Notes: generated by a model not told the origin, from the letters alone. A stretch of DNA of 64,000 nt from Acidimicrobiales bacterium (GCA_035546775.1 DASZWD010000017.1:30564-94563), one strand, 5' to 3'; positions 4,158 to 39,288 are shown, counted from the first letter of the stretch. Made by a program: numbers and translations.

Positions 4158-4173
4158 TCTAACAGCGCCGTCA
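4158..4173. promoter_or_regulatory. Putative operator TCTAAC-N6-GTCA (copy 1) in the divergent tetR/amidohydrolase promoter
   Basis: TCTAACagcgccGTCA. Overlaps a minus-strand TAGATT -10-like box 8 nt before the tetR GTG. The same motif recurs at four other promoters. Confidence 0.75.
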
Positions 4174-4200
4174 CTTTTCGAGCCTTGAGGGAGATCTGGA

Positions 4201-5499
4201 ATGCAGCTCGACGACATGATCCTGGTGAGCGTCGACGACCACGTGGTCGAGCCACCCGACCTCTTCGAGGGCCGTCTCTCAAAGAAGGCCGCCGAAAAGG
4301 CGCCGCGCGTCGAGAAGCTGGACGACGGCCTGGAAACGTGGGTCTTCGAAGGCGCGCCGATGCCCAACGTCGGACTCAACGCGGTCGCCGGCCGCGACCC
4401 GCTGGAGTACGGGCTTGACCCCACGTCGTTCGACCAGATGCGCAAGGGGTGCTTCGACATCCACGAACGCATCCGCGACATGAACGTGAACGGCGTGCTC
4501 GGCTCGCTCAACTTCCCGTCGCTCGTCGGCTTCGCCGGGACGCTCTTCTACACAATGGAAGACAAGGACATCGCGCTCGAGTTGCTGCGCGCCTACAACG
4601 ACTGGCACATCGAAGAGTGGTGCGGCACGTACTCCGGCCGCATGATTCCCCTCGCCATTCCGCCGATCTGGGACCCGAAGCTGATGGCCGACGAAGTGCT
4701 GCGCGTGGCGGAGAAGGGCTGCCACGCGTTCACCTTCAGCGAGAACCCGTCGAAGATCAACAACCTGCCGAGCTACCACTCCGACCACTGGGACCCGTTC
4801 CTCGCCGCGATGCAGGAAACCGAATCGGTGCTGTGCCTGCACATCGGTTCGTCGAGTCAGATGTCGATCACGTCGATGGACGCGCCCATGGACACGATGA
4901 TCACCCTGCAGCCGATGAACATCGTGCAGTGCGCGGCGGACCTCGTGTGGTCGCCGATGTTCCGCAAGTTTCCCAGCCTCAAGGTGGCCCTCAGCGAGGG
5001 CGGCATCGGCTGGATTCCGTACTTCCTCGAGCGCCTCGACTACGTCTACAACCACCATCACCAGTGGACCAACCAGGACTTCGGTGGCAAGTTGCCGAGC
5101 CAGGTGTTCAACGAGAACATCCTCACCTGCTTCATCGACGACGCCGTCGGCATCGAAATCCGTCACCACCTGAACATGGACTCGATCATGTGGGAGTGCG
5201 ACTACCCGCACTCCGACTCGACGTGGCCCAACGCGCCCGAGATGGCGATGAAGTACCTCGACGGCCTGCCCGACGACGAGATCAACAAGATCACGCACCT
5301 CAACGCCATGAACCACTTCAAGTTCGACGCGTTCAAGCACATCCCGCGTGAGCAGTGCACAGTCGGCGCGCTGCGAGCCCAAGCCACCGACGTCGACACC
5401 ACGCCCAAGTCCTACGGCACCGGCGCCTTCAAGGAGGACGGCGGCATCGTCACCGCCATGACGCTCGCCGAGCGCATCGCGGCGCGCGCCGGTAGGTGA
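4201..5499 (+). CDS. Amidohydrolase family 2 protein
   Basis: SVDDHVVEP, LCLHIG, MWECDYPHSD metal-binding motifs; SD GAGGGAG upstream. Confidence 0.9.
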   Translation: MQLDDMILVSVDDHVVEPPDLFEGRLSKKAAEKAPRVEKLDDGLETWVFEGAPMPNVGLNAVAGRDPLEYGLDPTSFDQMRKGCFDIHERIRDMNVNGVLGSLNFPSLVGFAGTLFYTMEDKDIALELLRAYNDWHIEEWCGTYSGRMIPLAIPPIWDPKLMADEVLRVAEKGCHAFTFSENPSKINNLPSYHSDHWDPFLAAMQETESVLCLHIGSSSQMSITSMDAPMDTMITLQPMNIVQCAADLVWSPMFRKFPSLKVALSEGGIGWIPYFLERLDYVYNHHHQWTNQDFGGKLPSQVFNENILTCFIDDAVGIEIRHHLNMDSIMWECDYPHSDSTWPNAPEMAMKYLDGLPDDEINKITHLNAMNHFKFDAFKHIPREQCTVGALRAQATDVDTTPKSYGTGAFKEDGGIVTAMTLAERIAARAGR

Positions 5500-5906
5500 G
5501 CGACCACCCGTTTCGGGTTCTCCCCCGACTCGACGACCACAACCGGTTCTTCTGGACGTCGGGCGCCGACGGCAAGCTGCGCTTCCTGCGCTGTAACGAC
5601 TGCGGCTACTACATCCACCCGCCGCTGCCGCAGTGCCCGCGCTGCGCGTCGAAGGACATCACGCCGTCGGTCGTCACCGGGCGCGGCGTGGTGCACAGCT
5701 TCACCATCAACCATCAGCCGTGGGACGGGTCGACCGAGCCGTGGTCGATCGTGCTCGTCGAACTCGACGAGCAGGAAGGTCTGCGCCTGACCTCCAACAT
5801 GGTCAATTGCGCCAACGAGAACGTGCGCATCGGCATGCCCGTCCACGTCGTCTTCCAGCAGTACGACGACGTCTTCATTCCCGTGTTCGAGCCCGCCAAT
5901 GAGTAG
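5496..5906 (+). CDS. DUF35-type Zn-ribbon/OB-fold protein (partner of a thiolase-like enzyme)
   Basis: CNDC...CPRC zinc ribbon, GVVHSFT, VELDEQ..RLTSN, VRIGMPV; GTGA overlap. Confidence 0.9.
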   Translation: MSDHPFRVLPRLDDHNRFFWTSGADGKLRFLRCNDCGYYIHPPLPQCPRCASKDITPSVVTGRGVVHSFTINHQPWDGSTEPWSIVLVELDEQEGLRLTSNMVNCANENVRIGMPVHVVFQQYDDVFIPVFEPANE

Positions 5907-5909
5907 CCG

Positions 5910-7112
5910 ATGAGTGACTTCGAGAATCGTTCGATCATCAGCGGCGTCGGTCAGTCCGAGATCGGACGCAAGCTCGGTCGCGACGAGCTCGACATGACGC
6001 TCGACGCCGCGCGCGCCGCCATCGCCGATGCCGGGCTTACCGTCGACGACATCGACGGCATCGCCGCCTACCCCGGCGAGATGGCCGGCTCGCCCGGCGG
6101 CTTTGCCGGGCCCGGCACGCCCGCGGTCCAGGACGCGCTGCGCCTCAAGGTCAACTGGCACTCCGGTGGACGCGAAGGGCCGGCACAGATCCAGGCCGTC
6201 ATCAACGCCGTGATGGCCGTCGGCGCCGGCCTGGCCCGCCACGTGCTCGTGTACCGCACGGTCAACGAGTCGACCGCGCAAGGCGAGGGCGGCCGCTCCG
6301 GAATCGGCCTCGACTCGGGCGGTGGCGGCGGTGGCGCGCCGCGCATGAGCGGCGACTTCCAGTGGCTCATCCCGATGCGCGCCTACTCCGCCGCGTGCTG
6401 GCTGGCGATGTGCGCCAACCGCCACATGCACGAGTTCGGCACGACGCCCGAGCAGCTGGCCCAGATCACACTCAACGCTCGCCGCCACGCGGGGCGCAAC
6501 CCCAAGGCCATCTTCCGCGACCCGCTCACGCTCGACGACTACTTCGCCTCGCGCATGATCACCACGCCGTTCCATCTCTACGACTGCGACGTACCGTGCG
6601 ACGGGTCAACGGCGGTGATCGTCAGCGCCGTCGACCACGCTCCCAACGTCGACCACCCCGTCGCCCGCGTCGAAGCCATGGGCACAGCGCTGCGCGGCCG
6701 CCCGTCCTGGGATCAGTGGGAGGACATGACCACGATGTGTGCCCGCGACGCCGGCGCGCAGATGTGGACGCGCACCGATCTGCGCCCGTCCGATGTCGAC
6801 GTCGCCGAGCTGTACGACGGCTTCTCGTTCCTGACGATGACGTGGCTCGAAGCGCTCGGCTTCTGCGGCAAGGGCGAGTCCGGTCCGTTCGTCGAGGGCG
6901 GCACCCGACTCGACCTCGACGGCGAGCTCCCGCTCAACACCCACGGCGGCCAGCTCAGCGCCGGTCGCCTCCACGGCTTCGGGTTCATCCACGAAGCCGT
7001 GATGCAGTTGAGCGGCCGCGCCGGCGACCGTCAGGTCAAGAACGCCGAAGTCGCGGCGGTCGCCAACGGGGGCGGCCCCATCGGCGGCTGCATGCTGCTC
7101 ACGAAGCTCTAA
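5910..7112 (+). CDS. Thiolase-like (SCP-x/Ltp family) protein, probable aldolase
   Basis: DCDVPCDGS, DVAELYDGF, LNTHGGQLSAGRLHG; follows a DUF35 gene. Confidence 0.88.
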   Translation: MSDFENRSIISGVGQSEIGRKLGRDELDMTLDAARAAIADAGLTVDDIDGIAAYPGEMAGSPGGFAGPGTPAVQDALRLKVNWHSGGREGPAQIQAVINAVMAVGAGLARHVLVYRTVNESTAQGEGGRSGIGLDSGGGGGGAPRMSGDFQWLIPMRAYSAACWLAMCANRHMHEFGTTPEQLAQITLNARRHAGRNPKAIFRDPLTLDDYFASRMITTPFHLYDCDVPCDGSTAVIVSAVDHAPNVDHPVARVEAMGTALRGRPSWDQWEDMTTMCARDAGAQMWTRTDLRPSDVDVAELYDGFSFLTMTWLEALGFCGKGESGPFVEGGTRLDLDGELPLNTHGGQLSAGRLHGFGFIHEAVMQLSGRAGDRQVKNAEVAAVANGGGPIGGCMLLTKL

Positions 7113-7115
7113 GCG

Positions 7116-7162
7116 TTCTGTGAAGGCTCTTCCGTGCAGGGCACGGAAAAGTCTTCACAGAA
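7116..7162. repeat. 47-nt REP-like palindrome (copy A) between convergent genes
   Basis: TTCTGTGAAGGCTCTTCCGTGC-AGG-GCACGGAAAAGTCTTCACAGAA, a 22-bp imperfect stem; 41/47 identical to 39496-39542. Confidence 0.85.
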
Positions 7163-7166
7163 GCGA

Positions 7167-8642: not shown

Positions 8643-8751
8643 GAACTATTCGCTTTCGGGTGAGAGACAACTCAAGGACCCGGCGAACCGTTCAACGAGC
8701 AGTCAGTGTCACGGCAGAAGTGCACGTGAGGACGACCAGTGTACGACAGAT

Positions 8752-9396
8752 TCACAACAACGCCGCGATCAGCTGCGCGCCGACGAACTTTCCGTACCTC
8801 TCGTTCGACCAACCGCGGCCGTTCACGAGGAGATCCCAGACCTCCACGGAGTTGTGCACCCACAACACGTCGCGCGCCTCTTCGACGGAAACACCTTTTC
8901 GCAACGCCTTGATCTCCTTGAGGCTCGTCGCCAGCATCGTCATGCCGCGCAATCGCTCCTCCTGCAACTGCGCCCACACGTCCCGGGCGCCGGCGTCGGT
9001 CGCCGCCGCGGCTCTGACCGCGAGCAGGATCGCCCCGACGCGCTGCATCGTTCCGGTCATGTGCTCGCCGTACAGGCGCAGTTTCTCCCGCGGATCCGTG
9101 GTGCTGCGGACGCGGAGTAACGACTCGCGCTCCTGGATGGGCAAGTCTTCGTCGTCTCCGGCGATCGCGACGTCAAAGCACGCTTTTACCAGCGCGGGCT
9201 TCTTCCCGATCGTCTTGTAGATCGTCTCGACCGACACCCCCGCCGCCTCGGCGACGGCATTCATCGTCGTCGCCGCGTACCCCTGGTCCAGAAACATCCG
9301 CGTGGCCACCGCCAGCACCGCGCGCCGCGTGGCGCGCGCCTGCTCCTGGCGCCGGCTGGCGTCGTACTTCCGTGCGGGGTTGACAGTCGGCGACAT
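8752..9396 (-). CDS. TetR-family transcriptional regulator
   Basis: GYAATTMNAVAEAAGVSVETIYKTIGKK HTH. Confidence 0.92.
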   Translation of the reverse strand: MSPTVNPARKYDASRRQEQARATRRAVLAVATRMFLDQGYAATTMNAVAEAAGVSVETIYKTIGKKPALVKACFDVAIAGDDEDLPIQERESLLRVRSTTDPREKLRLYGEHMTGTMQRVGAILLAVRAAAATDAGARDVWAQLQEERLRGMTMLATSLKEIKALRKGVSVEEARDVLWVHNSVEVWDLLVNGRGWSNERYGKFVGAQLIAALL

Positions 9397-9439
9397 TCAG
9401 TACATAGTCCTATATCGGATACAGACGATTGTATTGGAT
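9395..9439. promoter_or_regulatory. Two similar operator-like sites in the divergent tetR promoter
   Basis: ATACA-gacgat-TGTAT inverted repeat at 9419-9434; a similar copy ATATAGGACTATGTACTGAAT on the minus strand at 9395-9415. Confidence 0.6.
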
Positions 9440-20600: not shown

Positions 20601-20777
20601 GCCAACGTGATGCTCGGTGCGGCCACCCGCTACATCGGCGCCCTGCGCTCCCTGCTGGGCGAGCGCGACGCGGCCATCGCGGACCTCGAGGCTGCGATTG
20701 CGTTGGAAGCAGCGCTGGGCGCCGAAGCGTGGCTGGCTCGCAGCCGCCGCTGGCTCGAGCGCGTCAGTTCGAGCTGA
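17652..20777 (+). CDS. Class III cyclase domain + AAA/STAND ATPase + helical-repeat protein
   Basis: ADIVESTRL, VKTLGDG, GDVFGEAVVLARR (cyclase); GEPGVGKT (Walker A); VIDDVHWA (Walker B); GNALFV. Confidence 0.9.
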   Translation: MTGGRTLTVLVADIVESTRLATSLGPERADDLRRSVFSRFELAAEQHDGTLVKTLGDGCLVTYTSASNGITAGVELVQSIDRLARQVPGLQLRVGIAVGDLTEEDGDVFGEAVVLARRVCDAASPGQVLVTDVARTLAGARGAITWQRVGDIFLKGLDEPVPCSSARPSTDLGAAATLPRALRRRHGEFFVGRAAVLESLVRTWKEAEGGDGRFVVVSGEPGVGKTRLVAAAARRADDDGARVLFGRCEEDLALPYQPFVDALRPAIEAAPRDVVAAHMEAHGGEIRRLFPKLPGPAPVDAALELEEARVNAALADLAARLAREQPIVLVIDDVHWAAPATVHALRHLLAADDPAPLLVLATYRDTEVVASDATAALLADIPRFDHAHRIALSGLTQDEVEELIEELSAEPLSSASTRLAAAVFAHTAGNALFVNQVLRHLAETGSVEMRDGRWELAAELTDMPTAVTDVVNRRLALLAPTTNQVLAIAAVAGERFTHALISRVAAGVDIDAALAEALRARLLIDDGRGGYRFFHAIVRDALLASQSAATRAAHHRDIAAVMRTIYGDGPTAPLHDLAYHACGAAGLGTTADAARFSLAAAEASVHRADVRAAIAVLNRCWRTLDAIDPVDHVARFDVCNRLAELHYAMLDGEYDALEAAVESARLLGSPERLIRASLSAYRWDLGTDDAFATKLIEEGLATLPPGPSALRALGLASGANFLNVQATGDPRAWTRQAFEMIDELGGPTTLDLRLAFECAVAATAGHPGVRAVVERIEANDGSPLSPRGGSLLAAYMGTKAESYLRAGNRDASLAVIRTMEAIASTSGDPNVMGWALTTQVIWALAEARYDDAAAFAQRAVSRIGVHVPNIAAVVAVGTMWRAYEEGNSAMVVDVIRMMVTATPEFHGMRAALAVHLCELGEFDEARQHVQYIVDLLPTLPRNVAFGCAIGLTAEAAAQAGCAEYAPALIAELEPFRDEIISLPANVMLGAATRYIGALRSLLGERDAAIADLEAAIALEAALGAEAWLARSRRWLERVSSS

Positions 20778-22410
20778 AGCGCTCGACGAGCTGCGCCGTC
20801 AGGGCGCGGCGGTCGACCTTGCCGCTGTCGAGCCACGGCAGTTCGGTCTGCGACGCGAACACCGCGATGTGCTTGGGCACCTTGTACGACGCGATCTCGT
20901 TCTTCACGAACGCCTTCAACTCGTCCTCGGTGACCGACGCGCCCGGCGTGAGCGCGACGGCAGCGACGACCTTTTCCATGTTGTCCTCGACCGGCACGCC
21001 GCACACGAACGCCAGCGCCACGTCGTCGTGGAGTTCGAGCGCCAGCTCGACGTCGCGGGGCGTGATGTTCATGCCGTTCGCCTTGATGAGATCGCCGAGA
21101 CGGCCGGTGAAGTAGAAGTGGCCGTCGGCGTCGAAGTAGCCGCCGTCGCCGCTGCGGTACCAGCCGTCGGGCGTGAACACGTCGGCGCGCTCACGCTTGT
21201 GCAAGCCCTGCATCAGCGAGTAGCCGCGGATCCACAGCTCACCGCTCTCGCCCACCGCACATTCTTCACCGGTGAGCGGGTCGACGATCTTGTGCTCGAC
21301 CCCCGGCACGGTCGGCCCGAACGAACCCTCCTTGTCGGGCGGCAGCACGTTGTCGCGGTGATCGAAGGTGTGCGGGCCCAGCGTCTCGGTCATGCCGAGC
21401 GAGTTGGCCCGCGGCCGCATCGCTTCTGCCTGCTTGTCGGGCGGCAGCAGGTACGCGCCGGCGGCGGATGCCGTGCGCAGCGACGACACGTCGCGGGTCT
21501 GGAAGTCCGGATGATCCGCCAGTGCCTTGGCCATGTGCGGCCACCCGAGGACCTGCGTGATGCGCTCGCGCTCGATCAGGGCCAGGGTCTTGGGCGGATC
21601 GAATTGGTGCTCGAACACGAGCGTGGCGCCGGCGTGCAGCGCGGCGACCAGCGTGAAGCTCATGCCGCCGACCCAGAACAGCGGCATCGGCGTGTACAGC
21701 ACGTCGTCGGCGTTGATGTCGCGCATCTGCCACAGGTTGTGGGCGTGGCGCACGGCCGGGCCGTGGGTGTGGATCGCACCCTTCGGGTCGGCCGTCGAAC
21801 CCGACGAGTAGATGACGACCATCGGATCGGCGGGCGACACCTCGGACTCGACCGCGTCGAACACCGCCTCCGGCACGAGCGCGGCGCGGTTCTCCAGCTC
21901 GGACACCGGCGCGTTCCACGAGCGCTGCGGCATCGGACCCCACGTCCACACCGAGCGCAAGTAGGGCAGTTCCTCGATGAAGATCGACTCGTTCTCCTGG
22001 CCGACGATCGACGGCGCCACCTGCTCCATGCGCTCGAGGTAGTCGTGACCGAGGTGGCCGTCGACCATCAGCACCATCTGGGCGTCGCAGTGCCGCAGCG
22101 TGTAGCTCAGCTCCCGCGCCTTCGAGTACGTGTTGAGCAGCACGGCCACGCCGCCGATGCGCGTGATGGCCAACCAGCCGACGATCCAGTCCGGCCCGTT
22201 CGGCGCCAGCAGCGCCACCCGTGTGCCCTTGCCGGCGCCGCTCGCCAGCAGGCCCCGCGCCAGTGTGCGCGACGCCGCCTCGATGTCGTTGAACGAGAGG
22301 CGCAGGTCCTCGAGCACGACGAAGGTCTTGTCGCCGTACTTCTGCGCCGCATGCTTGATCAGTTCGCCGGAAGTCGGCGTGAACGACGGAAAAGACGGTT
22401 CGCGCTTCAT
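20764..22410 (-). CDS. Class I adenylate-forming enzyme (acyl-CoA ligase)
   Basis: YSSGSTADPKG, LGMTET, GWYRSGDGG, GRLGDLIK, YKVPK. Start ATG 22410 (MKREPSF). Confidence 0.92.
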   Translation of the reverse strand: MKREPSFPSFTPTSGELIKHAAQKYGDKTFVVLEDLRLSFNDIEAASRTLARGLLASGAGKGTRVALLAPNGPDWIVGWLAITRIGGVAVLLNTYSKARELSYTLRHCDAQMVLMVDGHLGHDYLERMEQVAPSIVGQENESIFIEELPYLRSVWTWGPMPQRSWNAPVSELENRAALVPEAVFDAVESEVSPADPMVVIYSSGSTADPKGAIHTHGPAVRHAHNLWQMRDINADDVLYTPMPLFWVGGMSFTLVAALHAGATLVFEHQFDPPKTLALIERERITQVLGWPHMAKALADHPDFQTRDVSSLRTASAAGAYLLPPDKQAEAMRPRANSLGMTETLGPHTFDHRDNVLPPDKEGSFGPTVPGVEHKIVDPLTGEECAVGESGELWIRGYSLMQGLHKRERADVFTPDGWYRSGDGGYFDADGHFYFTGRLGDLIKANGMNITPRDVELALELHDDVALAFVCGVPVEDNMEKVVAAVALTPGASVTEDELKAFVKNEIASYKVPKHIAVFASQTELPWLDSGKVDRRALTAQLVERFSSN

Positions 22411-22426
22411 TGACACGAACGTTAGA
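22411..22426. promoter_or_regulatory. Putative operator TGAC-N6-GTTAGA (copy 2)
   Basis: TGACacgaacGTTAGA directly abuts the ligase start codon. Confidence 0.75.
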
Positions 22427-22487
22427 TCGACGGAGTCCCGCGTCGAGACTCGTCCACACCCTGTGGACAAGTCGCCGCATCGCGGAC

Positions 22488-22534
22488 TTCTGGTGTAACC
22501 ACGGAAGGGTCTTTCTGCCACGGCGACACCAGAA
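22488..22534. repeat. Degenerate 47-nt REP-like palindrome (copy C)
   Basis: TTCTGGTGT...ACACCAGAA; same termini and 47-nt length as copies A and B but a different interior. Confidence 0.55.
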
Positions 22535-22550
22535 GCAGCGGAGCGCCCGG

Positions 22551-25314: not shown

Positions 25315-25330
25315 TGACACGACTGTTAGA
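25315..25330. promoter_or_regulatory. Putative operator TGAC-N6-GTTAGA (copy 3)
   Basis: TGACacgactGTTAGA, 20 nt upstream of the amidohydrolase start. Confidence 0.75.
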
Positions 25331-25355: not shown

Positions 25356-25383
25356 TTGACACGGTTAGCTTTGCAATACAAAG
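25356..25383 (+). promoter_or_regulatory. Promoter with a TTGACA -35 and a CTTTG-N5-CAAAG inverted repeat
   Basis: TTGACA at 25356-25361; CTTTGcaataCAAAG at 25369-25383, upstream of an operon ending in a winged-helix regulator. Confidence 0.6.
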
Positions 25384-25391
25384 TTCATTAC

Positions 25392-25961
25392 ATGACAGAG
25401 AACCCTGCGGTTCCAACCGACGAGGCGCAATCGTTGCTGAACGTCGTGCGCGATGCGCAGGCGTCCACCAGCGCCCGCCTGCGCGCCCTGATGCCCGAGT
25501 TCCTGCTGCTGGCGGCGGCCACGTGCTTCGGCCTCGGGGTCGAGCGACCGGAGCATCCCGTCCACATCCTCTGGTTCTGCTTCCTCGGTGCGACGGCGTT
25601 GCTGGCCGCCCGCCACGATGTGATTCGGCGCCGCAACTTGGGCGGGGCGTTGCCGAAGCCGTCCGTGTGGGCGATCAGCGGCATGGTGCTCGTCGCCGAT
25701 GTCACCGCCGCGCTCGCACTCCATGGCGACGCCCGCGACGCGGTGATCGGCATCGGCTTCGCCGGGGGCGCCGTCGCATTCGCCGCGATCCACCGCAACG
25801 TCGTGCTCCTGGTCCCGGCGCTGCTGATCGCTGTTCTCTTGCCCTTGCCATCGGGCCCGCTCAACACCGCGTTCAGCTTCGCCGCCGGGATGGGATCGGC
25901 ACTTGTCGTCGGCGCCGTGGGGCGCAAACGCTCGCGGGCCAAGAAGGGAATCCGGTCATGA
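25392..25961 (+). CDS. Hypothetical membrane protein
   Basis: MTENPAVP...; about six hydrophobic segments. The start is set after the AT-rich promoter. Confidence 0.75.
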   Translation: MTENPAVPTDEAQSLLNVVRDAQASTSARLRALMPEFLLLAAATCFGLGVERPEHPVHILWFCFLGATALLAARHDVIRRRNLGGALPKPSVWAISGMVLVADVTAALALHGDARDAVIGIGFAGGAVAFAAIHRNVVLLVPALLIAVLLPLPSGPLNTAFSFAAGMGSALVVGAVGRKRSRAKKGIRS

Positions 25962-26083
25962 TCAACGGACAGTTCATCCGCCAGGCATCCGCCTATCGCT
26001 CCGCTGCCGGCTCATCCAAGACGACCGTGCGTCACCAGAGCCGCACCCGCAAGCTCGTGCGCAAAGTGTTCCCGCAGCGATGA
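25958..26083 (+). CDS. Putative 41-aa basic small protein
   Basis: MINGQFIRQASAYRSAAGSSKTTVRHQSRTRKLVRKVFPQR; ATGA overlaps at both ends. Confidence 0.35.
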   Translation: MINGQFIRQASAYRSAAGSSKTTVRHQSRTRKLVRKVFPQR

Positions 26084-26126
26084 CCGGCACCGGGCGCGAC
26101 GCCGCCAGCGTGCGCCGCCAGCCAGC

Positions 26127-26438
26127 ATGAGCGACGCGGAAGAACACCCTTCGCTCGGGCTCGACGACGTCGTCCACCAGCGGGTCCGGCTTGGCATCCT
26201 CGCGGTACTGGCCGAAGCGCCGCGCGCCGACTTCGGCGAGTTGCGCTCGATCCTGAAGCTGACCGACGGGAACCTCTCCCGACACCTCACGGTGTTGGAA
26301 GACGCGGGCTATGTCAGCCAGGAAAAGACGTTCGAAGGCAAGCGCCCCAAGACGTGGGTGGCGATAACCAAGACGGGGCGCAAGGCGTTCGACGACGAAG
26401 TGGCCGCGTTGCGCGCCCTGCTCGACGGCATTAGCTGA
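26127..26438 (+). CDS. Winged-helix (MarR/ArsR-like) transcriptional regulator
   Basis: LDDVVHQRVRLGIL, DFGELR..LKLTDGNLSRHL..LEDAGYV, TKTGRKAF. Confidence 0.9.
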   Translation: MSDAEEHPSLGLDDVVHQRVRLGILAVLAEAPRADFGELRSILKLTDGNLSRHLTVLEDAGYVSQEKTFEGKRPKTWVAITKTGRKAFDDEVAALRALLDGIS

Positions 26439-26709
26439 CGAGCAGGCCGACCACCATCGACCCGAGCACGACGGCGCCGAGCATGCGGCGGAACGGGTTC
26501 ACTCCCCAGCCGACCTCCATAACGGCCCAGACCGCGAGTCCGACGGCGCCGATCACGTGCACGACGGTGCCGGCGCCGCCGCGGGCAAAGCGACCGAGCA
26601 CGGCCGCGACGATCCAGACCCACAGCGGGACGTTCGGCCACTGCCATACGACGAGGTGCCCGTCGTGCGTCGTGCGGTCCTCGAACAGCCAACGCAGTGC
26701 TCGTCGCAT
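26431..26709 (-). CDS. Small hypothetical membrane protein
   Basis: WQWPNVPLWVW, WAVMEVGWGVNPFRR.LG. TACGGT -10-like box 6 nt before the ATG. Confidence 0.75.
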   Translation of the reverse strand: MRRALRWLFEDRTTHDGHLVVWQWPNVPLWVWIVAAVLGRFARGGAGTVVHVIGAVGLAVWAVMEVGWGVNPFRRMLGAVVLGSMVVGLLVS

Positions 26710-26731
26710 CGCCGCACCGTAGAGTCCGCGC

Positions 26732-27100
26732 ATGGCCACTGACCCGATCGACGTCGTCACTCGTTTCTGTCAGGCGTGGGAGTCCGTCGACGTCGACGCT
26801 CTCATGGCGTTCTTCACCGACGACGCGGTGTACCACAACATTCCGATCGCGCCCGTCGCCGGCAAGGACGCCATCCGCACCACGATCGAAGGCTTCACCG
26901 GAGGCGTCGACCGCATCGAGTTCGACGTCCGCGCCATCGCGGCGAACGGCAACACCGTGCTGACCGAACGCGTCGACCGCTTCATCCGTCCGGACAAGAC
27001 GATGGCGCTGCCGGTCATGGGCACGTTCGAAATCGTCGACGGCAAGATTGCCGCGTGGCGCGACTACTTCGACCTCCAGCAGTTCATGTCGCAGCTGTAG
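26732..27100 (+). CDS. Limonene-1,2-epoxide hydrolase family (SnoaL/NTF2-like)
   Basis: VYHNIP, VLTERVDRF, LPVMGTFE, IAAWRDYFD. Confidence 0.9.
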   Translation: MATDPIDVVTRFCQAWESVDVDALMAFFTDDAVYHNIPIAPVAGKDAIRTTIEGFTGGVDRIEFDVRAIAANGNTVLTERVDRFIRPDKTMALPVMGTFEIVDGKIAAWRDYFDLQQFMSQL

Positions 27101-27119: not shown

Positions 27120-27135
27120 TGACACGAGTGTTAGA
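27120..27135. promoter_or_regulatory. Putative operator TGAC-N6-GTTAGA (copy 4), overlapping a CTGACA -35
   Basis: TGACacgagtGTTAGA; TAGCCT -10-like box at 27143-27148; GTG at 27158. Confidence 0.75.
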
Positions 27136-27157: not shown

Positions 27158-28150
27158 GTGGATGTCGACGTGACCGAAGACCAGGAATTCTTCGCGCAGA
27201 CCACGCGCAAGTTCCTCGCTGCCGAAGCACCAATCACCACCGTGCGCGCCCTCGCAGCGAATCCCGACGGGTTCGAACGCGGCTACTGGAAGGCGGCGTG
27301 TGACCTCGGCTGGACCTCCATGCTCGCCCCCGATTCGGGCGGCAGCATGCTCGAACTCGCGATCGTCGCCGAGGAAATGGGACGCGCCGTGGCGCCCGGG
27401 CCCCTCGTGGCCTCGAATGTCGCCGTGCATGCGCTCGCGACCGGTGCCAGCGACGCGCAGCAGGCCAAGTGGTTGCCCGGTTTGCTCAGCGGTGACCTCG
27501 TGGGCGCGTGGGTCCACGAAACCGCCGGCGTCGTCGAAGCCGGTGCCCAGGCCGACGTCTTCGTGGTCACGACCGCCGACGGCGCTCGCCTTGTCGCCGC
27601 CGACGACCCCGCCGTGCACGTGACGCCGTGGGACGGGCTCGACCTGGTGCGGCGCTTCGCGCACGTCTCGATCGACGCCGACGCCGGTGAACCGCTCGGC
27701 GAGGTCGGCGATCTGTTTCCCGTCGCTCTCGTGACGCAGTGCGCCGAGACGTGTGGTGTCGTCGAGCGCGTCTTCGAGATGACCCTCGAGTACATGGACG
27801 ATCGCTTCTCCTTCGGCCGTCCGCTGTCGTCGTATCAGGCGCTGAAGCACCGTGTCGCCGACGACAAGATGCACCTCGAGGCGTGCCACGCCATCACGAC
27901 GGCAGCGGCGTACGCGTTCGCCGAGGGCGCACCCAACGCCGCCGAGTTGGCCGCGGCGGCCAAGGCGTGGATCGGCGCCATCGCCACCGAGATCATCCAG
28001 GACTGTGTGCAACTCCACGGCGGCATCGGCGTCACGTGGGAACACGACATCCACCTCTACTTGCGCCGCGCCACCGTCAACCGGGCGACGTACGGCCCAC
28101 CGGCCGAGTGGCGCGAACACCTCGCCCAGATGATCCTGGGGGCGGCATGA
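27158..28150 (+). CDS. Acyl-CoA dehydrogenase (short partner subunit)
   Basis: RFSFGRPLSSYQALKH, VQLHGGIGVTWEH. Confidence 0.92.
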   Translation: MDVDVTEDQEFFAQTTRKFLAAEAPITTVRALAANPDGFERGYWKAACDLGWTSMLAPDSGGSMLELAIVAEEMGRAVAPGPLVASNVAVHALATGASDAQQAKWLPGLLSGDLVGAWVHETAGVVEAGAQADVFVVTTADGARLVAADDPAVHVTPWDGLDLVRRFAHVSIDADAGEPLGEVGDLFPVALVTQCAETCGVVERVFEMTLEYMDDRFSFGRPLSSYQALKHRVADDKMHLEACHAITTAAAYAFAEGAPNAAELAAAAKAWIGAIATEIIQDCVQLHGGIGVTWEHDIHLYLRRATVNRATYGPPAEWREHLAQMILGAA

Positions 28151-29388
28151 CCTCGCCACGCCGCGAGACGGTCGACGAGTTCCGGGCGCGGGCGCGCGCG
28201 TGGATTCGTTCGAACCTCGAGCCGATGGACGACTTCGAGCGCGCCGACGTGCCCGGTCGCCGCGACCACGAGCGCGCCCTGCAGCGCAAGCTCTACGACG
28301 CCGGATTCGCCGGCATCTGCTTCCCCGCCGAGTACGGCGGCCTCGGGCTGCCACCGGCCTATCAGCGCGCCTTCACCGAGGAAGCCGCGGGCTACGACAT
28401 GCCGTCGTCGCTCAACGTGCCGACCTTCGGCATCCTCGCCGCCACGCTGCTCGACTTCGGCACCGACGAGCAGAAACGCCGTCACATCCCGGCGATCCTG
28501 CGGGGCGAAGAGTTGTGGGTGCAGTTCCTCAGCGAGCCCAGCGGCGGATCCGATCTCGCCGGCGTGTTGACCCGCGCCGACCGCGACGGCGACGTGTTCG
28601 TGCTCAACGGCTCGAAGATCTGGTCGAGCGGGGCGCACGAGTGCGACTACGCCATGATCCTCGCCCGCACCAACTGGGACGTGCCGAAGCACCGCGGCCT
28701 CACGATGTTCATCCTCAAGATCCATCAGCCGGGCGTGCAGGTCGAGCAGATCCGCCAGGTCGACGGGTCGATGGAGTTCTGCCAGGAGTTCTTCGACGAC
28801 GTGCACATACCCGTCGCCGACGTCGTGGGCGAGATCGACGACGGCTGGACCGTCGCCACCCGCCTCCTTACGCACGAGCGCGCTGCTGTCGGTGGCGCGT
28901 CGATCTACACCTCAGGACGCTCCGTGGGCCACGACCCCGGGTACTCGGCCACCGACAACCTCATCACCCAGCTCGTCACGTCGACGGGCCAGGCGTCGAA
29001 CGACCACGTGCGCCAGCTCGTCGCCGACGCCCATGTGCGCCAACTGGTTTCGGCGGCGCTGTCGCGCCGCATCGGGCACGGCCTCGCCAACGGCAAGCTG
29101 CCGGGACAGGCGGGCGCAATCATGAAGCTGTTCAGCGCCAACGGCGTGATCCGGCGCTCCGAGATCGGCCTCGAGATCGCCGGCGCCGCGGCGGCGGCGT
29201 GGGCTCCGGGTGAGGAACCGCCGACGCGGGCCGCCGCCGAGTTCTCACTGTGGCGGCAGTCGACGTCGCTCGGCGGTGGCAGCAACGAGATCCAGCGCAA
29301 CATCATCAGCGAGCGCGTCCTCGGCATGCCCCGCGAGTACGCGGCGGACCGCGAGATCCCCTACCGCGAGGTCAAGCGCAGCCGCTAA
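28147..29388 (+). CDS. Acyl-CoA dehydrogenase (catalytic-type subunit)
   Basis: ATGA overlap; WVQFLSEPSGGSDLA, LNGSKIWSS, LGGGSNEIQRNIISERVLG. Confidence 0.93.
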   Translation: MTSPRRETVDEFRARARAWIRSNLEPMDDFERADVPGRRDHERALQRKLYDAGFAGICFPAEYGGLGLPPAYQRAFTEEAAGYDMPSSLNVPTFGILAATLLDFGTDEQKRRHIPAILRGEELWVQFLSEPSGGSDLAGVLTRADRDGDVFVLNGSKIWSSGAHECDYAMILARTNWDVPKHRGLTMFILKIHQPGVQVEQIRQVDGSMEFCQEFFDDVHIPVADVVGEIDDGWTVATRLLTHERAAVGGASIYTSGRSVGHDPGYSATDNLITQLVTSTGQASNDHVRQLVADAHVRQLVSAALSRRIGHGLANGKLPGQAGAIMKLFSANGVIRRSEIGLEIAGAAAAAWAPGEEPPTRAAAEFSLWRQSTSLGGGSNEIQRNIISERVLGMPREYAADREIPYREVKRSR

Positions 29389-31058: not shown

Positions 31059-31073
31059 TCTGACGGAGTGTCA
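31059..31073. promoter_or_regulatory. Operator-like palindrome TCTGAC-N5-GTCA in a divergent promoter
   Basis: CTGACggagtGTCAG inverted repeat; a variant of the TCTAAC-N6-GTCA motif with one less spacer base. Confidence 0.5.
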
Positions 31074-32245: not shown

Positions 32246-32255
32246 ACCTTGCCCC

Positions 32256-34352: not shown

Positions 34353-34356
34353 GCGG

Positions 34357-34746: not shown

Positions 34747-34748
34747 AG

Positions 34749-37596: not shown

Positions 37597-37605
37597 TTGA
37601 CGGAA

Positions 37606-37621
37606 TCTAACAGTGGCGTCA
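37606..37621. promoter_or_regulatory. Putative operator TCTAAC-N6-GTCA (copy 5), upstream of the P450 operon
   Basis: TCTAACagtggcGTCA; overlaps a minus-strand TAGATT 7 nt before the P450 ATG. Confidence 0.75.
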
Positions 37622-37624
37622 GCT

Positions 37625-38542
37625 TTATGACGCCGCGTCGGGCGTCGCGGCGCGCACGGATGTCTTCTCGGCGTTGACCGTCGGCGGCGCCGTCTTCCAG
37701 TTGGGGATGCCGTCCTCCTCGAGCGCCGCGGGGTACTTGTTGTCGTGAATCTGCGCCCAGTGCGAGTGGTTGAGCTCGTGCAGCGTGAAGCACGAGTTCA
37801 AGGCGTTGTAGAACCCCTGGTTGTCGACCGTCTGGTTGACCGACTCCTTGATCATCAGCGCCGTCATCGTCGGCAGTGCGGCGATGCGACGGGCGAAGGC
37901 GAGCGTGTTGTCCTCGAGCTCGTCACGCTTGAACACCTTGCTGACCATGCCGAGACGGTGCGCCTCGTCGATGCTGATCGAGTCCCCGGTGAGGAGAAGT
38001 TCCTTGGCCTTGCGCGGCCCGAACTCCCACGGGTGGGCGAAGTATTCGAGGCCGCACATGCCCAGGCGCGTACCGACGACGTCGGCGAACACGACCTCTT
38101 CGGAACCGACGATGAGATCACACGCCCACAGCAGCATCAGGCCGGCAGCGAACACCGGACCGTGCGCCTGACCGATGGTGATCTTGCGCAGGTTGCGCCA
38201 CCGCAGCGTGTTCTGGAAGTAGTAGTGCCACTCCTGGAGGAACAGCTTCTCGGCGCCCTCGCGCGAGCCGCCGTTGGTGTGCGACGTCGGATGCGTCTGC
38301 CACTCCTCCGCGGCGACTTTCGAGCCCATGTCGTGACCGGCCGAGAACAGCGGGCCCATGCCGCCGAGGATCACGACGCGCACCTGGTCGTCGGCCTCGG
38401 CGCGCAGGAACGCCTGGTCGAGCTCGACGAGCATGCCCCGGTTCTGCGCGTTCCGCGCCTCCGGACGGTTGAGCATGATGCGGGCGATCGCGCCGTCGTC
38501 GAAGGTCTCGTAGGTGACGAAGTGGTACTCAGTTTCTGACAT
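37625..38542 (-). CDS. echA13: Enoyl-CoA hydratase, EchA13-like
   Basis: LNRPEARNAQ.RGMLVEL, QEWHYYF.NT.RWRNLRKITI, VVGTRLGMCG.EYFAHPWEFGPRK. These match mycobacterial EchA13 as I recall it. Confidence 0.85.
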   Translation of the reverse strand: MSETEYHFVTYETFDDGAIARIMLNRPEARNAQNRGMLVELDQAFLRAEADDQVRVVILGGMGPLFSAGHDMGSKVAAEEWQTHPTSHTNGGSREGAEKLFLQEWHYYFQNTLRWRNLRKITIGQAHGPVFAAGLMLLWACDLIVGSEEVVFADVVGTRLGMCGLEYFAHPWEFGPRKAKELLLTGDSISIDEAHRLGMVSKVFKRDELEDNTLAFARRIAALPTMTALMIKESVNQTVDNQGFYNALNSCFTLHELNHSHWAQIHDNKYPAALEEDGIPNWKTAPPTVNAEKTSVRAATPDAAS

Positions 38543-38547
38543 AGGCG

Positions 38548-39288
38548 TCACGTTATTCCGACGGCGTCGACGAGGCCCCAGGCGAGGGCGGTTTGGGCGT
38601 CGATGGGTTGACGGGAGAGGCCGAGTCGGAGCATGCGCTCGACGCCGATCCGGGCCGTCATCGAAACGGTGCCGCCGGCACCCGGGATGAGACCGAGGCC
38701 GATCTCGGGCAGGGCGATCGTGGTGTCGGGGGCGGCGATCACCCGCGACGCGAACGCCGGCAACTCGATGCCGCTGCCGTAACACGCCCCGTGGATGTGG
38801 AAGGTGACGCGGTCGGCGATCGCGGCGATCGCGGCGCCGATGCTCGTCTGCAACCGGATGACGTGCGCCTCTTCGGGCGAAGGGAACGAACCGAACTCGT
38901 CGAGGTCGCCCCCGGCGCAGAACGACGGGCCGTTGCCGCGAACAATCACGCGCAACGACGCATCGGCGTGGGCGACGGCGAACGCGTCGAGCAGCCCGTC
39001 GCGCACTTCGATGCCAAGGGCATTGCGCCGTTCCGGCCGGTTCAGCGTGACGCGCAACTCGTCACCGACGCGTTCGATCAACACCGCCGGTTCGGGGTTC
39101 GGTTGCCTCGGCTTGATCGGTGTCGCAGCGCGCCACGCCGCGAACTCCGGGCCCGCCTGGAGCGACGAGTACACGCGCGACTCGTCTTCGAGGCTCGAGC
39201 CGCGCATCAAAAGGTCCTCGTAGGCCGCACACGCCCGCGGCCAGCGCCGGCGGGATTCGGCGATGGCGTCGTCTACGGTCACAGGCAC
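38548..39288 (-). CDS. Enoyl-CoA hydratase/isomerase family protein (start uncertain)
   Basis: LNRPERRNAL, FCAGGDL, GACYGSGIEL, LPEIGLGLIPGAGGT. Confidence 0.85.
   Translation of the reverse strand: MPVTVDDAIAESRRRWPRACAAYEDLLMRGSSLEDESRVYSSLQAGPEFAAWRAATPIKPRQPNPEPAVLIERVGDELRVTLNRPERRNALGIEVRDGLLDAFAVAHADASLRVIVRGNGPSFCAGGDLDEFGSFPSPEEAHVIRLQTSIGAAIAAIADRVTFHIHGACYGSGIELPAFASRVIAAPDTTIALPEIGLGLIPGAGGTVSMTARIGVERMLRLGLSRQPIDAQTALAWGLVDAVGIT

What the first reader, a model, noticed from the sequence alone, without database searches (positions are those of the whole stretch)
4158..38550. Asymmetric operator TGAC-N6-GTTAGA defines a candidate catabolic regulon across 35 kb
Seen: five exact matches, all intergenic and next to a catabolic start. 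They are 4158-4173 (tetR/amidohydrolase divergon), 22411-22426 (ligase), 25315-25330 (amidohydrolase), 27120-27135 (ACAD pair) and 37606-37621 (P450 operon). Three spacers are near-identical (acgaac, acgact, acgagt). Variants are TCTGAC-N6-GTCA at 38535-38550 (over the echA13 start) and TCTGAC-N5-GTCA at 31059-31073. A rough estimate at about 70% GC gives roughly 0.02 chance hits per window. Established: the motif is neither KstR (TnnAACnnGTTnnA) nor KstR2 (AnCAAGnnCTTGnT). In M. tuberculosis the tandem TetR Mce3R binds an asymmetric operator and represses echA13. Inference: the double-HTH TetR at 2891-4147 reads this pseudo-palindrome, one HTH per half-site, and controls an uncharacterised lipid/steroid-type pathway.
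Basis: partly seen in the sequence, partly recalled or inferred. Interest (0 to 1): 0.85.

Follow-up and report, generated by a model that had tools for sequence, protein, structure and literature searches.

The report
Operator boxes of a double-TetR repressor
A 16-20 bp asymmetric DNA box repeated in front of fat-breakdown-type genes is almost certainly the binding site of a neighbouring "two-in-one" TetR repressor, a regulator type so far studied only in the tuberculosis protein Mce3R, and the box-repressor pairing is conserved across a whole order of uncultured soil and sludge actinobacteria.

Summary
The window has five exact TGAC-N6-GTTAGA sites against 0.01 expected, all in short intergenic gaps beside gene starts. 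The whole 3.75-Mb genome, an Acidimicrobiales MAG with 69% GC, has 13 exact sites, all next to gene starts. A PWM scan finds 18, including the GTCAGA variant at 38535.

The link to the 418-aa tandem TetR (2891-4147) is well supported by comparison, though binding is untested. In 79 loci encoding orthologues (43-89% identity), 66 carry the box within 260 bp upstream of the TetR gene, always in the same orientation. Among 151 genomes of the class, only the two with a close orthologue are clearly enriched for the box. Targets recur across genomes: two Amidohydro_2 enzymes, ACAD pairs, a P450 and an enoyl-CoA hydratase.

The asymmetry and the spacing are strict. Symmetric forms and N5 or N7 spacings occur 0 times against 130 for the main form. 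The box overlaps or abuts -10 hexamers of often leaderless genes, which suggests repression by promoter occlusion.

The predicted fold is an Mce3R-like single-chain pseudo-dimer, but the sequence is no closer to Mce3R than to ordinary TetRs. The N5 "variant" at 31059 belongs to a different palindromic motif. I rate this a new member of a known kind, of moderate interest.

The parts
2891..4147 (-). Tandem (single-chain double) TetR-family regulator, 418 aa, the proposed reader of the box. GTG start, probably leaderless.
   Evidence: It has two PF00440 TetR_N stretches. The gene was called as 418 aa. The AF2 model has pLDDT 88 and pTM 0.86, and its only full-length PDB match is Mce3R 9b7y. Both recognition helices are invariant across 47 orthologues: C53-F62 (CSRPAFYQYF) and S272-F280 (SHGSFYRYF). 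The hexamer TAGATT lies 8 nt before the GTG.
4158..4173 (-). Operator O1 (TGACGGCGCTGTTAGA; extended box 4157-4176) in the 53-bp tetR/amidohydrolase divergent region. It overlaps TAGATT (-10 for tetR) and, on the other strand, TAATCT (candidate -10 for the amidohydrolase).
   Evidence: Exact match. It has the highest PWM score in the genome, 34.6 bits. The same position and orientation recur in 66/79 orthologous loci.
4201..7112 (+). Target operon: Amidohydro_2 (4201-5499), DUF35/ChsH2-like OB-fold (5496-5906) and thiolase-like lipid-transfer protein (5910-7112).
   Evidence: Pfam, NCBIfam and gene calls. The amidohydrolase orthologue (74-89% identity) lies on the TGAC side of the box in 63 related loci, typically 22-25 nt from the start.
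618..2890 (-). Genes co-transcribed with tetR: a small IpdE2-like ACAD subunit (1826-2890) and a 403-aa ACAD (618-1829), followed by an AMP-ligase that runs off the window.
   Evidence: Gene calls show the tetR stop abutting the ACAD start. Pfam and NCBIfam IpdE2/PimD-small similarity.
22411..22426 (+). Operator O2 (TGACACGAACGTTAGA), abutting the ATG (22410) of the 548-aa acyl-CoA ligase on the minus strand (20764-22410).
   Evidence: Exact match; PWM 20.1 bits; gene call; sequence. On the gene's strand, TAACGT (TANNNT) lies 8 nt before the ATG.
25315..25330 (+). Operator O3 (TGACACGACTGTTAGA) in the 61-bp divergent region. On one side is the Amidohydro_2 (25294->24104) plus 492-aa ligase (24029->22551) operon. 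On the other is a 201-aa ORF of unknown function (25356-25961).
   Evidence: Exact match; PWM 32.6 bits; gene calls. Orthologues of this amidohydrolase (70-79% identity) carry the box on the same (TGAC) side in 29 related-locus sites.
27120..27135 (+). Operator O4 (TGACACGAGTGTTAGA), upstream of the ACAD pair 27170-28150 (IpdE2-like small subunit) and 28147-29388. A TAGCCT -10-like hexamer follows 8 nt after the box.
   Evidence: Exact match; PWM 24.6 bits; gene calls; NCBIfam. In 9 related loci one box is shared by this ACAD and the divergent amidohydrolase.
37606..37621 (-). Operator O5 (TGACGCCACTGTTAGA) in the 28-bp gap before the P450 operon. The operon is P450 37596->36430, CoA-transferase III 36433->35210, RidA, cupin, RraA-like and ureidoglycolate-lyase-like down to 33262. 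TAGATT lies 7 nt before the ATG.
   Evidence: Exact match; PWM 32.3 bits; gene calls; Pfam. P450 orthologues (about 60% identity) have the box on the same side in 7 related loci.
38535..38550 (-). Operator O6, a GTCAGA variant (TGACGCCTATGTCAGA). It spans the stop of an ECH-like ORF and the ATG (38539) of the 304-aa enoyl-CoA hydratase (38539->37625).
   Evidence: One mismatch to the pattern; PWM 21.4 bits. The start is fixed by a GC3 switch from 0.57 to 0.93. The ECH passes the NCBIfam PRK08290 cut-off. GTCAGA forms make up 28 of 158 sites in relatives. An ECH orthologue (74% identity) in L075 also has a box upstream.

Best explanation
**What it is.** The box is the operator of the 418-aa single-chain double-TetR encoded at 2891-4147. 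The full box is about 20 bp: A-nn-TGAC-R-N4-Y-GT(T/C)A-GA-(T). It is a pseudo-palindrome whose two halves differ, AnnTGAC on one side and ATCTAAC (read on the other strand) on the other.

**How it probably binds (inferred).** The protein folds as an intramolecular pseudo-dimer. Its two non-identical helix-turn-helix units (recognition helices SRPAFYQYF and SHGSFYRYF) each contact one half-site. The half-site centres are about one helical turn apart.

**How it probably acts (inferred from site positions).** Binding represses transcription by covering the -10 hexamer, the start site or the -35/-10 spacer of target promoters. Many of these promoters drive leaderless mRNAs (TANNNT 7-8 nt before the start codon). 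At its own locus, a single box covers two back-to-back -10 elements, TAGATT for tetR and TAATCT for the divergent amidohydrolase operon. This would explain the extra conservation of 'TTA' at those sites.

**What it controls (shown by site positions).** The regulon is genome-wide: 13 exact sites, about 18 by PWM. It covers acyl-CoA-type catabolic genes:
- two Amidohydro_2 enzymes
- DUF35/thiolase-like pairs
- two-gene ACAD pairs with an IpdE2-like small subunit, as in the heteromeric ACADs of steroid degradation
- acyl-CoA ligases
- P450s
- enoyl-CoA hydratases
- a Baeyer-Villiger-type monooxygenase
- an aldehyde dehydrogenase

**Inducer (guess).** It is probably a CoA thioester of the pathway, because the two halves most resemble the acyl-CoA sensors FasR and FadR.
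For: - **Non-random and start-proximal.** The window has 5 sites against 0.01 expected. The genome has 13 against 1 for the reversed control pattern. All lie beside gene starts.
- **Phylogenetic footprint.** Of 79 loci with TetR orthologues at 43-89% identity, 66 have the box within -260..+20 of the TetR match. All 66 are in the same orientation and none in the opposite one. Positions not imposed by the search pattern are also conserved, at 1.1-1.5 bits: A at -3, R at +4, Y at +9 and TTA at +16..18.
- **Co-occurrence.** In 151 genomes of the class, only G000 (13 sites) and G055 (7 sites) stand out. Six of G055's sites are on the TetR contig, one of them 69 bp upstream of the TetR gene. These are the two genomes with orthologues of at least 46% identity.
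- **More distant homologues.** Tandem-TetR genes at 32-36% identity in three other genomes carry two upstream copies of a sister box, TGAC-N6-GTTAGT.
- **Conserved targets.** In the relatives, boxes lie next to the amidohydrolase divergent from tetR (63 sites), the second amidohydrolase (37), ACAD326 (10), ACAD697 (9), the P450 (8) and the ECH.
- **Strict asymmetry and spacing.** TGAC-N6-GTTAGA occurs 130 times in 1.25 Mb of loci. Fully symmetric forms occur 0 times, and N5 or N7 spacings 0 times.
- **Protein.** It has two TetR_N domains. Both recognition helices are invariant but different. The AF2 model has pLDDT 88 and pTM 0.86, and its only full-length structural match is Mce3R bound to DNA (9b7y; TM 0.58/0.62).
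- **Single candidate.** G000 has only one protein of this family.
- **Precedent.** Mce3R binds a non-palindromic site as a single-chain pseudo-dimer (PMC11667970).
Against: - No binding, expression or start-site data exist. Only DNA metagenomes hold this sequence.
- In roughly a third of orthologous loci the box lies more than 100 bp from the tetR start, and a separate TAGCGT-N7-ATG promoter sits next to the gene. Autoregulation is therefore not universal.
- Box orientation relative to the regulated gene differs between targets, so a single occlusion geometry does not fit every site.
- The N-terminal half resembles FasR, which NCBIfam names an activator.
- G009 and G096 have distant tandem homologues but no exact box in the genome.
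- The site set used for the logo was selected with the pattern itself, so the invariant positions are partly circular.
Confidence: 0.8

Rival explanations
1. The box is a real operator, but another regulator encoded elsewhere reads it, for example a conventional homodimeric TetR. The tandem TetR gene would then be just one conserved member of that regulon.
For: The genome has many TetR genes, including 8752-9396 in the window. The 220-aa TetR on C56 has a weak box touching its own ATG. A related palindromic motif, cTGAC-N5-GTCAGa, shares the TGAC/GTCAGA half-site and must have its own reader.
Against: - A homodimer would be expected to prefer a symmetric site, yet symmetric forms occur 0 times against 130.
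- The only regulator gene consistently adjacent to the box across 66 loci is the tandem TetR.
- Box enrichment follows the presence of the tandem orthologue.
- A sister subfamily of tandem TetRs carries a sister box.
Confidence: 0.1
2. The box is mainly a promoter element, an extended -10 (TGnTAGAT) plus upstream contacts, perhaps for a particular sigma factor. It would not be a repressor site.
For: TGTTAGATT matches TGn-TANNNT. TAGATT lies 7-8 nt before the start codons of tetR and the P450, and before many tetR orthologues, which is the typical leaderless geometry.
Against: - Away from the tetR sites the T after AGA is only about 60% conserved and the TTA is lost, while TGAC-N6-GTTAGA stays invariant.
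- Many targets have their own -10-like hexamer (TACACT, TAGAAn, TAGCCT) 6-8 nt downstream of the box.
- TGAC lies only 8 bp from the TAGATT hexamer, too close to serve as a -35.
- Genes are served from either side of the box.
- At O6 the box spans a stop/start junction.
Confidence: 0.06
3. The tandem TetR binds the box but acts as an activator, or as a dual regulator, at some targets.
For: The N-terminal half is most similar to FasR, named an activator by NCBIfam. In some loci the box lies 100-200 bp upstream of tetR, beyond the promoter next to that gene.
Against: Most sites overlap or abut -10 hexamers or start codons, which is repressor geometry. Most characterised TetR-family proteins, including Mce3R, are repressors (PMC11667970; PMC3511530 abstract).
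Confidence: 0.1
4. The matches are chance hits or copies of a mobile or REP-like repeat.
For: The spacers at 22411, 25315 and 27120 are nearly identical. The genome does carry a 47-nt palindromic repeat family (earlier notes).
Against: - Shuffles give 0.01 matches per window.
- Flanks beyond about 20 bp are unrelated.
- The box is conserved at orthologous promoters in genomes whose proteins are only 43-60% identical.
Confidence: 0.01

Closest known systems
Mycobacterium tuberculosis Mce3R (Rv1963c; PDB 9b7y; PMC11667970)
   Same: Both are single polypeptides with two TetR modules that fold into one asymmetric pseudo-dimer with two different HTHs. Both have a non-palindromic operator and sit next to their targets. 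Both regulons contain ACAD pairs and an enoyl-CoA hydratase. Mce3R is the only full-length structural match of the AF2 model.
   Different: - **Sequence.** There is no specific relationship. Identity is 17% in the structural alignment, and Mce3R scores no better than single-domain TetRs such as FasR or FadR.
- **Lineage.** Acidimicrobiia here, against pathogenic mycobacteria.
- **Operator.** Here it is a compact single box of 16-20 bp with a clear consensus, lying on or beside the -10 hexamer. Mce3R uses two 25-bp sites 53 bp apart, about 100 bp upstream of yrbE3A, and the published probe has no TGAC-N6-GTTAG.
- **Targets.** No mce transporter is among the targets found here.
KstR and KstR2 (mycobacterial and rhodococcal steroid-catabolism TetR repressors)
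   Same: They are TetR-family repressors of large actinobacterial lipid or steroid catabolic regulons. Each has a short conserved operator repeated before many operons, and each is autoregulated.
   Different: None of the sites here fits either consensus, because AC and GT are 6 bp apart and the flanks are asymmetric.
FasR (M. tuberculosis, PDB 6o6n-6o6p) and Bacillus FadR (5gpa, 3whb), acyl-CoA-sensing TetR regulators
   Same: These are the best sequence matches of the N-terminal half (FasR) and the C-terminal half (FadR). That is the basis for guessing an acyl-CoA effector.
   Different: They are single-domain homodimers. FasR is an activator of fatty-acid synthesis. The similarity is at general family level (E about 1e-12 to 1e-14).
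Engineered single-chain Tet repressors (from my own knowledge, not checked here)
   Same: Two TetR modules in one chain allow each HTH to be specified independently, so an asymmetric operator can be read.
   Different: Those are laboratory constructs. This is a natural, widely conserved family with a fixed asymmetric consensus.

Membership tests
TetR family (Pfam PF00440 TetR_N) | An N-terminal HTH DNA-binding domain matching TetR_N; for a double TFR, two of them. | tested here: met
   There are two TetR_N stretches, total 104.6 bits against a cut-off of 24. The HTHs lie at about residues 26-69 and about 240-285.
Mce3R-type single-chain double TetR repressors | Two complete TetR modules in one polypeptide of about 400 aa. 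| tested here: met
   The protein is 418 aa. The model has 18 helices, nine per half. The architecture is conserved in 47 aligned orthologues.
Mce3R-type single-chain double TetR repressors | An intramolecular pseudo-dimer (the halves pack against each other) rather than two independent domains. | tested here: met
   This rests on prediction only. The AF2 pTM of 0.86 for the whole chain implies a confident arrangement of the two halves. Foldseek aligns 428 columns to 9b7y_A with TM 0.58/0.62, while all other hits cover one half only.
Mce3R-type single-chain double TetR repressors | A non-palindromic operator. | tested here: met
   TGAC-N6-GTTAGA occurs 130 times, against 0 for the symmetric TCTGAC-N6-GTCAGA and TCTAAC-N6-GTTAGA. 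Only 5 of the 130 have TC at -2/-1.
Mce3R orthologous group (Rv1963c) | Specific sequence similarity to Mce3R over both halves. | tested here: not met
   phmmer matches only one HTH (query residues 232-288 to Mce3R residues 7-63) at E = 5e-9, ranked below FasR and others. The profile search gives the same picture. Identity in the structural alignment is 17%.
Mce3R orthologous group (Rv1963c) | Operator architecture and sequence as in Mce3R: two 25-bp sites 53 bp apart upstream of yrbE3A. | tested here: not met
   The published probe A sequence contains no TGAC-N6-GTTAG. Here most targets have single 16-20-bp boxes on or beside the -10.
Mce3R-type single-chain double TetR repressors | Demonstrated DNA binding and ligand-relieved repression. 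| not testable with these tools
   No RNA or binding data exist for this organism. Only soil metagenome DNA runs hold the sequence.
KstR / KstR2 regulons | An operator matching TnnAACnnGTTnnA or AnCAAGnnCTTGnT. | tested here: not met
   By inspection of all the sites. The NCBIfam KstR model scores 43 bits against a cut-off of 280.

The most novel reading that the evidence does not exclude
Acidimicrobiia may harbour a class-wide family of natural single-chain TetRs that arose independently of Mce3R. In this reading, their two different HTHs read a compact 20-bp asymmetric operator with a strict half-site code: TGAC by one module and TCTAAC by the other. The code would co-evolve with the protein, as in the sister subfamily that uses GTTAGT. 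The family would control a still unknown acyl-CoA pathway centred on an amidohydrolase that is 74-89% identical across the order, including relatives of Candidatus Microthrix. This would be the first double-TetR with a sequence-defined consensus operator and a reconstructable regulon.
Probability: 0.5. Interest if true: 0.6.

Novelty: new member of a known kind. Interest (0 to 1): 0.5.

Why it matters
Double TetR repressors are rare, and only Mce3R has been studied. Its operator is long, degenerate and known from very few sites. That makes it hard to learn how two different HTHs in one chain divide the work of recognition.

This family offers more than 150 natural sites with a sharp asymmetric consensus, invariant recognition helices and a sister subfamily with a one-base change in the box. 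Together these make the question of which helix reads which half-site directly testable.

The finding also gives the first regulon-level handle on catabolism in Acidimicrobiales, which are abundant but mostly uncultured soil, rhizosphere and activated-sludge bacteria. It singles out two highly conserved Amidohydro_2 enzymes of unknown role as the core of the controlled pathway. A compact asymmetric operator with a single-chain repressor could also be useful as an orthogonal genetic switch.

Tried and rejected
- **N5 variant at 31059-31073 as part of the regulon: rejected.** N5 spacing of the main motif never occurs in 1.25 Mb of related loci. The site fits a separate palindromic family, cTGAC-N5-GTCAGa, with 9 sites in G000.
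- **Mce3R orthology: rejected on sequence**, although the fold matches.
- **Looking for the box in the published Mce3R probe:** absent.
- **Box as -35/-10 promoter only: rejected.** The spacing is wrong (TGAC lies 8 bp from the hexamer), and many targets have a separate downstream -10.
- **Near-identical spacers (ACGAAC, ACGACT, ACGAGT) as a binding requirement: not supported.** Spacers vary widely in relatives. The window's O3 and O4 flank a 1.8-kb block (25356-27100). That block is absent in nine related loci, where one box serves both genes. The two spacers therefore probably share ancestry. Only a weak R-Y-S-R preference is seen.
- **RNA evidence for start sites:** none available. The holders are DNA metagenomes, and the single metatranscriptome shares only 6% of sampled words, so I did not lay reads.
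- **Exact look-up of the 304-aa ECH for gene calls:** failed. I fixed the start by the GC3 switch instead.
- **HTH-to-HTH distance in the model:** could not be measured, because model coordinates are not exposed.
- **Literature search for other characterised tandem TetRs:** found only Mce3R.

Full report
**1. The observation**

TGAC-N6-GTTAGA occurs exactly five times in the 64-kb window, at the coordinates given: 4158 (-), 22411 (+), 25315 (+), 27120 (+) and 37606 (-). Dinucleotide-preserving shuffles give a mean of 0.01 matches, and none of 100 shuffles reaches five. At two mismatches the count is what chance gives (22 against 21.97), so the signal lies in the exact or near-exact sites.

The window is C17:30564-94563 of a 3.75-Mb, 75-contig genome with 69% GC. 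The nearest protein matches carry the labels Acidimicrobiales or Actinomycetota MAG, and the sequence is held by soil metagenomes.

Genome-wide there are 13 exact sites on seven contigs, against one for the reversed control pattern. All 13 lie beside gene starts. Gene calls from a near-identical public assembly confirm this for the window.

**2. Anatomy in the window**

Coordinates below combine the Pfam and NCBIfam results with the gene calls.

| Site | Position | Location | Genes served |
|---|---|---|---|
| O1 | 4158-4173 | 53-bp divergent gap | The tandem TetR gene (4147->2891, followed without a gap by two ACADs and a ligase) and the operon Amidohydro_2 / DUF35 / thiolase-like (4201-7112) |
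| O2 | 22411-22426 | Touches the ATG | A 548-aa acyl-CoA ligase (22410->20764) |
| O3 | 25315-25330 | 61-bp gap | A second Amidohydro_2 plus ligase operon (25294->22551) and a 201-aa ORF with no family match |
| O4 | 27120-27135 | After a LEH/SnoaL gene | An ACAD pair (27170-29388) |
| O5 | 37606-37621 | Fills 16 of the 28 bp before the gene | A P450 that heads a six-gene operon down to 33262 |
| O6 | 38535-38550 | Spans the stop of an ECH-like ORF and the ATG (38539) of the next gene | A 304-aa enoyl-CoA hydratase |

O6 is the GTCAGA variant. The start of its target gene is fixed by a jump in third-position GC from 0.57 to 0.93.

Outside the window, boxes sit next to:
- an aldehyde dehydrogenase
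- two further enoyl-CoA hydratases
- an SDR
- a 697-aa ACAD
- a second P450
- a Baeyer-Villiger-type monooxygenase, judged from its sequence only
- a third Amidohydro_2
- a hydroxyacid dehydrogenase
- another ligase

**3.

*The protein.* It has two TetR_N domains.

*The footprint.* A back-translated search of one genome per species found 165 stretches encoding relatives. The best 79 loci (43-89% identity) come from Acidimicrobiales MAGs labelled Microthrixaceae, Iamiaceae, Acidimicrobiaceae, Aquihabitans and Candidatus Microthrix parvicella, plus one cultured Aquihabitans isolate.
- In 66 of the 79 loci the box lies between -260 and +20 of the TetR match.
- It always points the same way, with the GTTAGA end towards tetR. 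No box lies in the opposite orientation in that zone.
- Chance would give far fewer than one such hit.
- Positions that the search pattern did not impose are also conserved: A at -3, R at +4, Y at +9 and TTA at +16 to +18, each at 1.1-1.5 bits. The surrounding sequence carries 0.1-0.3 bits.

*Co-occurrence.* In an even sample of 151 genomes of the class, only the window's genome (13 sites) and G055 (7 sites) stand out. Six of G055's sites are on the contig that carries the regulator gene, and one is 69 bp upstream of it. These are exactly the two genomes with an orthologue of at least 46% identity.

*Distant homologues.* Three genomes with more distant tandem homologues (32-36% identity) each carry two upstream copies of a sister box, TGAC-N6-GTTAGT. 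The pairing of a tandem-TetR gene with a TGAC-N6-GTTAG box therefore reaches deeper than the orthologous group.

*Single candidate.* The window's genome has a single protein of this family.

**4. A conserved regulon**

I took the ORFs next to all 158 boxes in the related loci and compared them with the window's proteins. The same targets recur, each mostly on a fixed side of the box:

| Target | Sites | Identity to the window protein | Side of the box |
|---|---|---|---|
| Amidohydrolase divergent from tetR | 63 | 74-89% | TGAC side, usually 22-25 nt from the start |
| Second amidohydrolase | 37 | 70-79% at 29 sites; 36-42% at most of the other 8 (more distant homologues) | TGAC side at 29 sites, GTTAGA side at 8 |
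| ACAD326 | 10 | 41-56% | Mostly the GTTAGA side, often sharing one box with the divergent amidohydrolase |
| 697-aa ACAD, with a divergent SDR | 9 | 58-61% | Mostly the GTTAGA side |
| P450 | 8 | about 60% at most sites | Mostly the GTTAGA side |
| Enoyl-CoA hydratase | 1 (L075) | 74% | TGAC side |

Both amidohydrolases are far better conserved than the regulator itself, which is 43-60% identical in most of these genomes.

**5. The motif itself**

The full box is about 20 bp: A-nn-TGAC-R-N4-Y-GT(T/C)A-GA-(T). Mirror positions agree at -3/16, 0/13, 2/11, 3/10 and 4/9, so it is a pseudo-palindrome. Two features break the symmetry:
- G at +1 faces T at +12 (C in a minority of sites).
- GA at +14/+15 has no TC counterpart at -2/-1.

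This asymmetry is not an artefact of the search pattern. In 1.25 Mb of loci, TGAC-N6-GTTAGA occurs 130 times and TGAC-N6-GTCAGA 28 times. TAAC-N6-GTCAGA occurs 5 times, and TAAC-N6-GTTAGA and both fully symmetric forms 0 times. Spacings of N5 and N7 also occur 0 times. In the window's genome, 13 of the 25 TGAC-N6-GTTA cores are followed by GA.

A PWM built from the relatives' sites finds only 18 hits of at least 14 bits in the whole genome. These include O6 and three further sites outside the window.

**6. Mechanism (inferred)**

The half-site centres are about 10-11 bp apart, which is one helical turn. That is what the two HTHs of a single TetR (pseudo)dimer span; in Mce3R the two are about 32 Å apart (PMC11667970).

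The AF2 model built on 47 orthologues is confident for the whole chain (pLDDT 88, pTM 0.86). Its only full-length match in the PDB is Mce3R bound to DNA (9b7y_A; 428 aligned columns; TM 0.58/0.62). Every other hit covers one half only. The two recognition helices, CSRPAFYQYF and SHGSFYRYF, differ from each other, and each is invariant across orthologues. This fits an invariant asymmetric box.

The site positions indicate repression by occlusion:
- At tetR, TAGATT lies 8 nt before the GTG. The same 6-8-nt spacing to an ATG is seen in many orthologues, which is the geometry of leaderless transcripts.
- The opposite strand of the same sequence reads TAATCT. This is a candidate -10 for the divergent amidohydrolase, which has a Shine-Dalgarno sequence and so needs a leader. 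One box would then cover two back-to-back -10 elements, which explains why TTA is conserved only at these sites.
- At the P450, TAGATT lies 7 nt before the ATG.
- At the ligase, TAACGT lies 8 nt before the ATG on the gene's strand.
- At ACAD326, the P450 orthologues and the C66 5655 site, a separate TANNNT hexamer follows the box by 6-8 nt. There the box occupies the -35/-10 spacer.

None of this is backed by transcript data.

The effector is unknown. The N-terminal half is most like FasR and the C-terminal half most like Bacillus FadR, both acyl-CoA sensors, so a pathway CoA thioester is my guess.

**7. Comparison with the known**

Mce3R is the only characterised double TetR I could find. The shared features are the architecture, the predicted fold, the non-palindromic operator and the lipid-type regulon with ACAD pairs and an enoyl-CoA hydratase.

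The two differ in these respects:
- *Sequence.* Mce3R scores no better than ordinary single-domain TetRs, and the best local match pairs this protein's second HTH with Mce3R's first.
- *Operator sequence.* The published Mce3R probe lacks the box.
- *Lineage.* Acidimicrobiia here, against pathogenic mycobacteria.

The protein therefore works like Mce3R but is not an Mce3R orthologue. The KstR and KstR2 consensus sequences do not fit any site.

It agrees with this report but is not independent evidence.

**8. What does not belong**

The N5 site at 31059-31073 lies between a DUF35/thiolase operon and an ACAD pair. It is one of nine sites in this genome of a distinct palindromic motif, cTGAC-N5-GTCAGa, which also sits before amidohydrolase, SDR and ACAD genes. 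This is probably a second regulon with its own, probably homodimeric, regulator that recognises a related half-site.

**9. Verdict**

My confidence that the box is the operator of this tandem TetR is about 0.8. Confidence in the repression-by-occlusion geometry is somewhat lower.

I class it as a new member of a known kind (single-chain double TetR with an asymmetric operator). It has unusually clean features that make the half-site and HTH assignment testable. Interest is moderate (0.5).

Noticed in passing
window 31059-31073; also G000 C23:8081, C68:3857, C75:1756, C75:1011, C24:31029, C17:107828, C15:61535, C31:11656: A second, palindromic motif, cTGAC-N5-GTCAGa, has 9 unique sites in the genome (about 3 expected by my rough estimate) and none in the 79 related loci. 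Most sit before catabolic genes: DUF35/thiolase and an ACAD pair in the window, two Amidohydro_2-like genes, a divergent SDR pair and a D-aminoacylase-like gene. This looks like a separate regulon whose reader recognises a half-site related to the tandem TetR box.
   Followed up: partly
window 25356-27100, between O3 and O4: In nine related loci one box serves the divergent amidohydrolase/ACAD326 pair. In the window the two genes are 1.8 kb apart and each has its own box, with near-identical spacers (ACGACT and ACGAGT). The block between them holds a 201-aa ORF with no family match, a 41-aa ORF, an ArsR-type HTH protein, a 92-aa ORF and a LEH/SnoaL protein. It looks like an insertion that split or duplicated the ancestral operator.
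   Followed up: partly
L085 (G096:C2), L087 (G116:C30), L088 (G060:C125), upstream of distant tandem-TetR genes: Tandem TetR homologues of 32-36% identity each have two copies, about 75 bp apart, of a sister box TGAC-N6-GTTAGT (ACTAAC-N6-GTCA on the gene's strand). The copies point opposite to the orientation seen in the main family. This may be a case of regulator and operator co-evolving. The paired sites also recall the two-site Mce3R operator.
   Followed up: partly
window 22483-22538: An inverted repeat (GGACTTCTGGTGT ... ACACCAGAAGCAGC) lies between the two ligase genes, just after the stop of the upstream one. It resembles the 47-nt TTCTG...CAGAA palindromic repeat family noted by earlier readers at 7116-7162 and 39495-39543. 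It probably acts as a terminator, which would give the downstream ligase its own box-controlled promoter.
   Followed up: no
window 38548-39489 (-): The ORF upstream of the regulated enoyl-CoA hydratase is itself ECH-like, but it matches only profile positions 8-173 of 251 and ends at ...AWGLVDAVGIT. It is either a C-terminally short crotonase or a remnant. Its TGA stop is the TGA of box O6.
   Followed up: no
G000 genome-wide: Among TGAC-N6-GTCA cores, the flanks ACT...AGT occur 11 times, counting both strands. This points to a third palindromic motif, ACTTGAC-N6-GTCAAGT, with about 5-6 sites.
   Followed up: no
G000 C56:2740-2755: An exact box with an atypical C at spacer position 1 (PWM below 14 bits) touches the ATG of a conventional 220-aa TetR gene. 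This may be a weak site linking the tandem TetR to a second regulator, or it may be chance.
   Followed up: no
related loci L009, L011-L016, L020, L025, L026, L031 and others, upstream of tetR: Many orthologues have a conserved GAGTAGCGTG block in which TAGCGT lies 7 nt before the ATG, a leaderless-type promoter of their own. In these loci the box lies 100-200 bp further upstream, beside the amidohydrolase. Autoregulation of tetR is therefore probably not universal in the family.
   Followed up: partly
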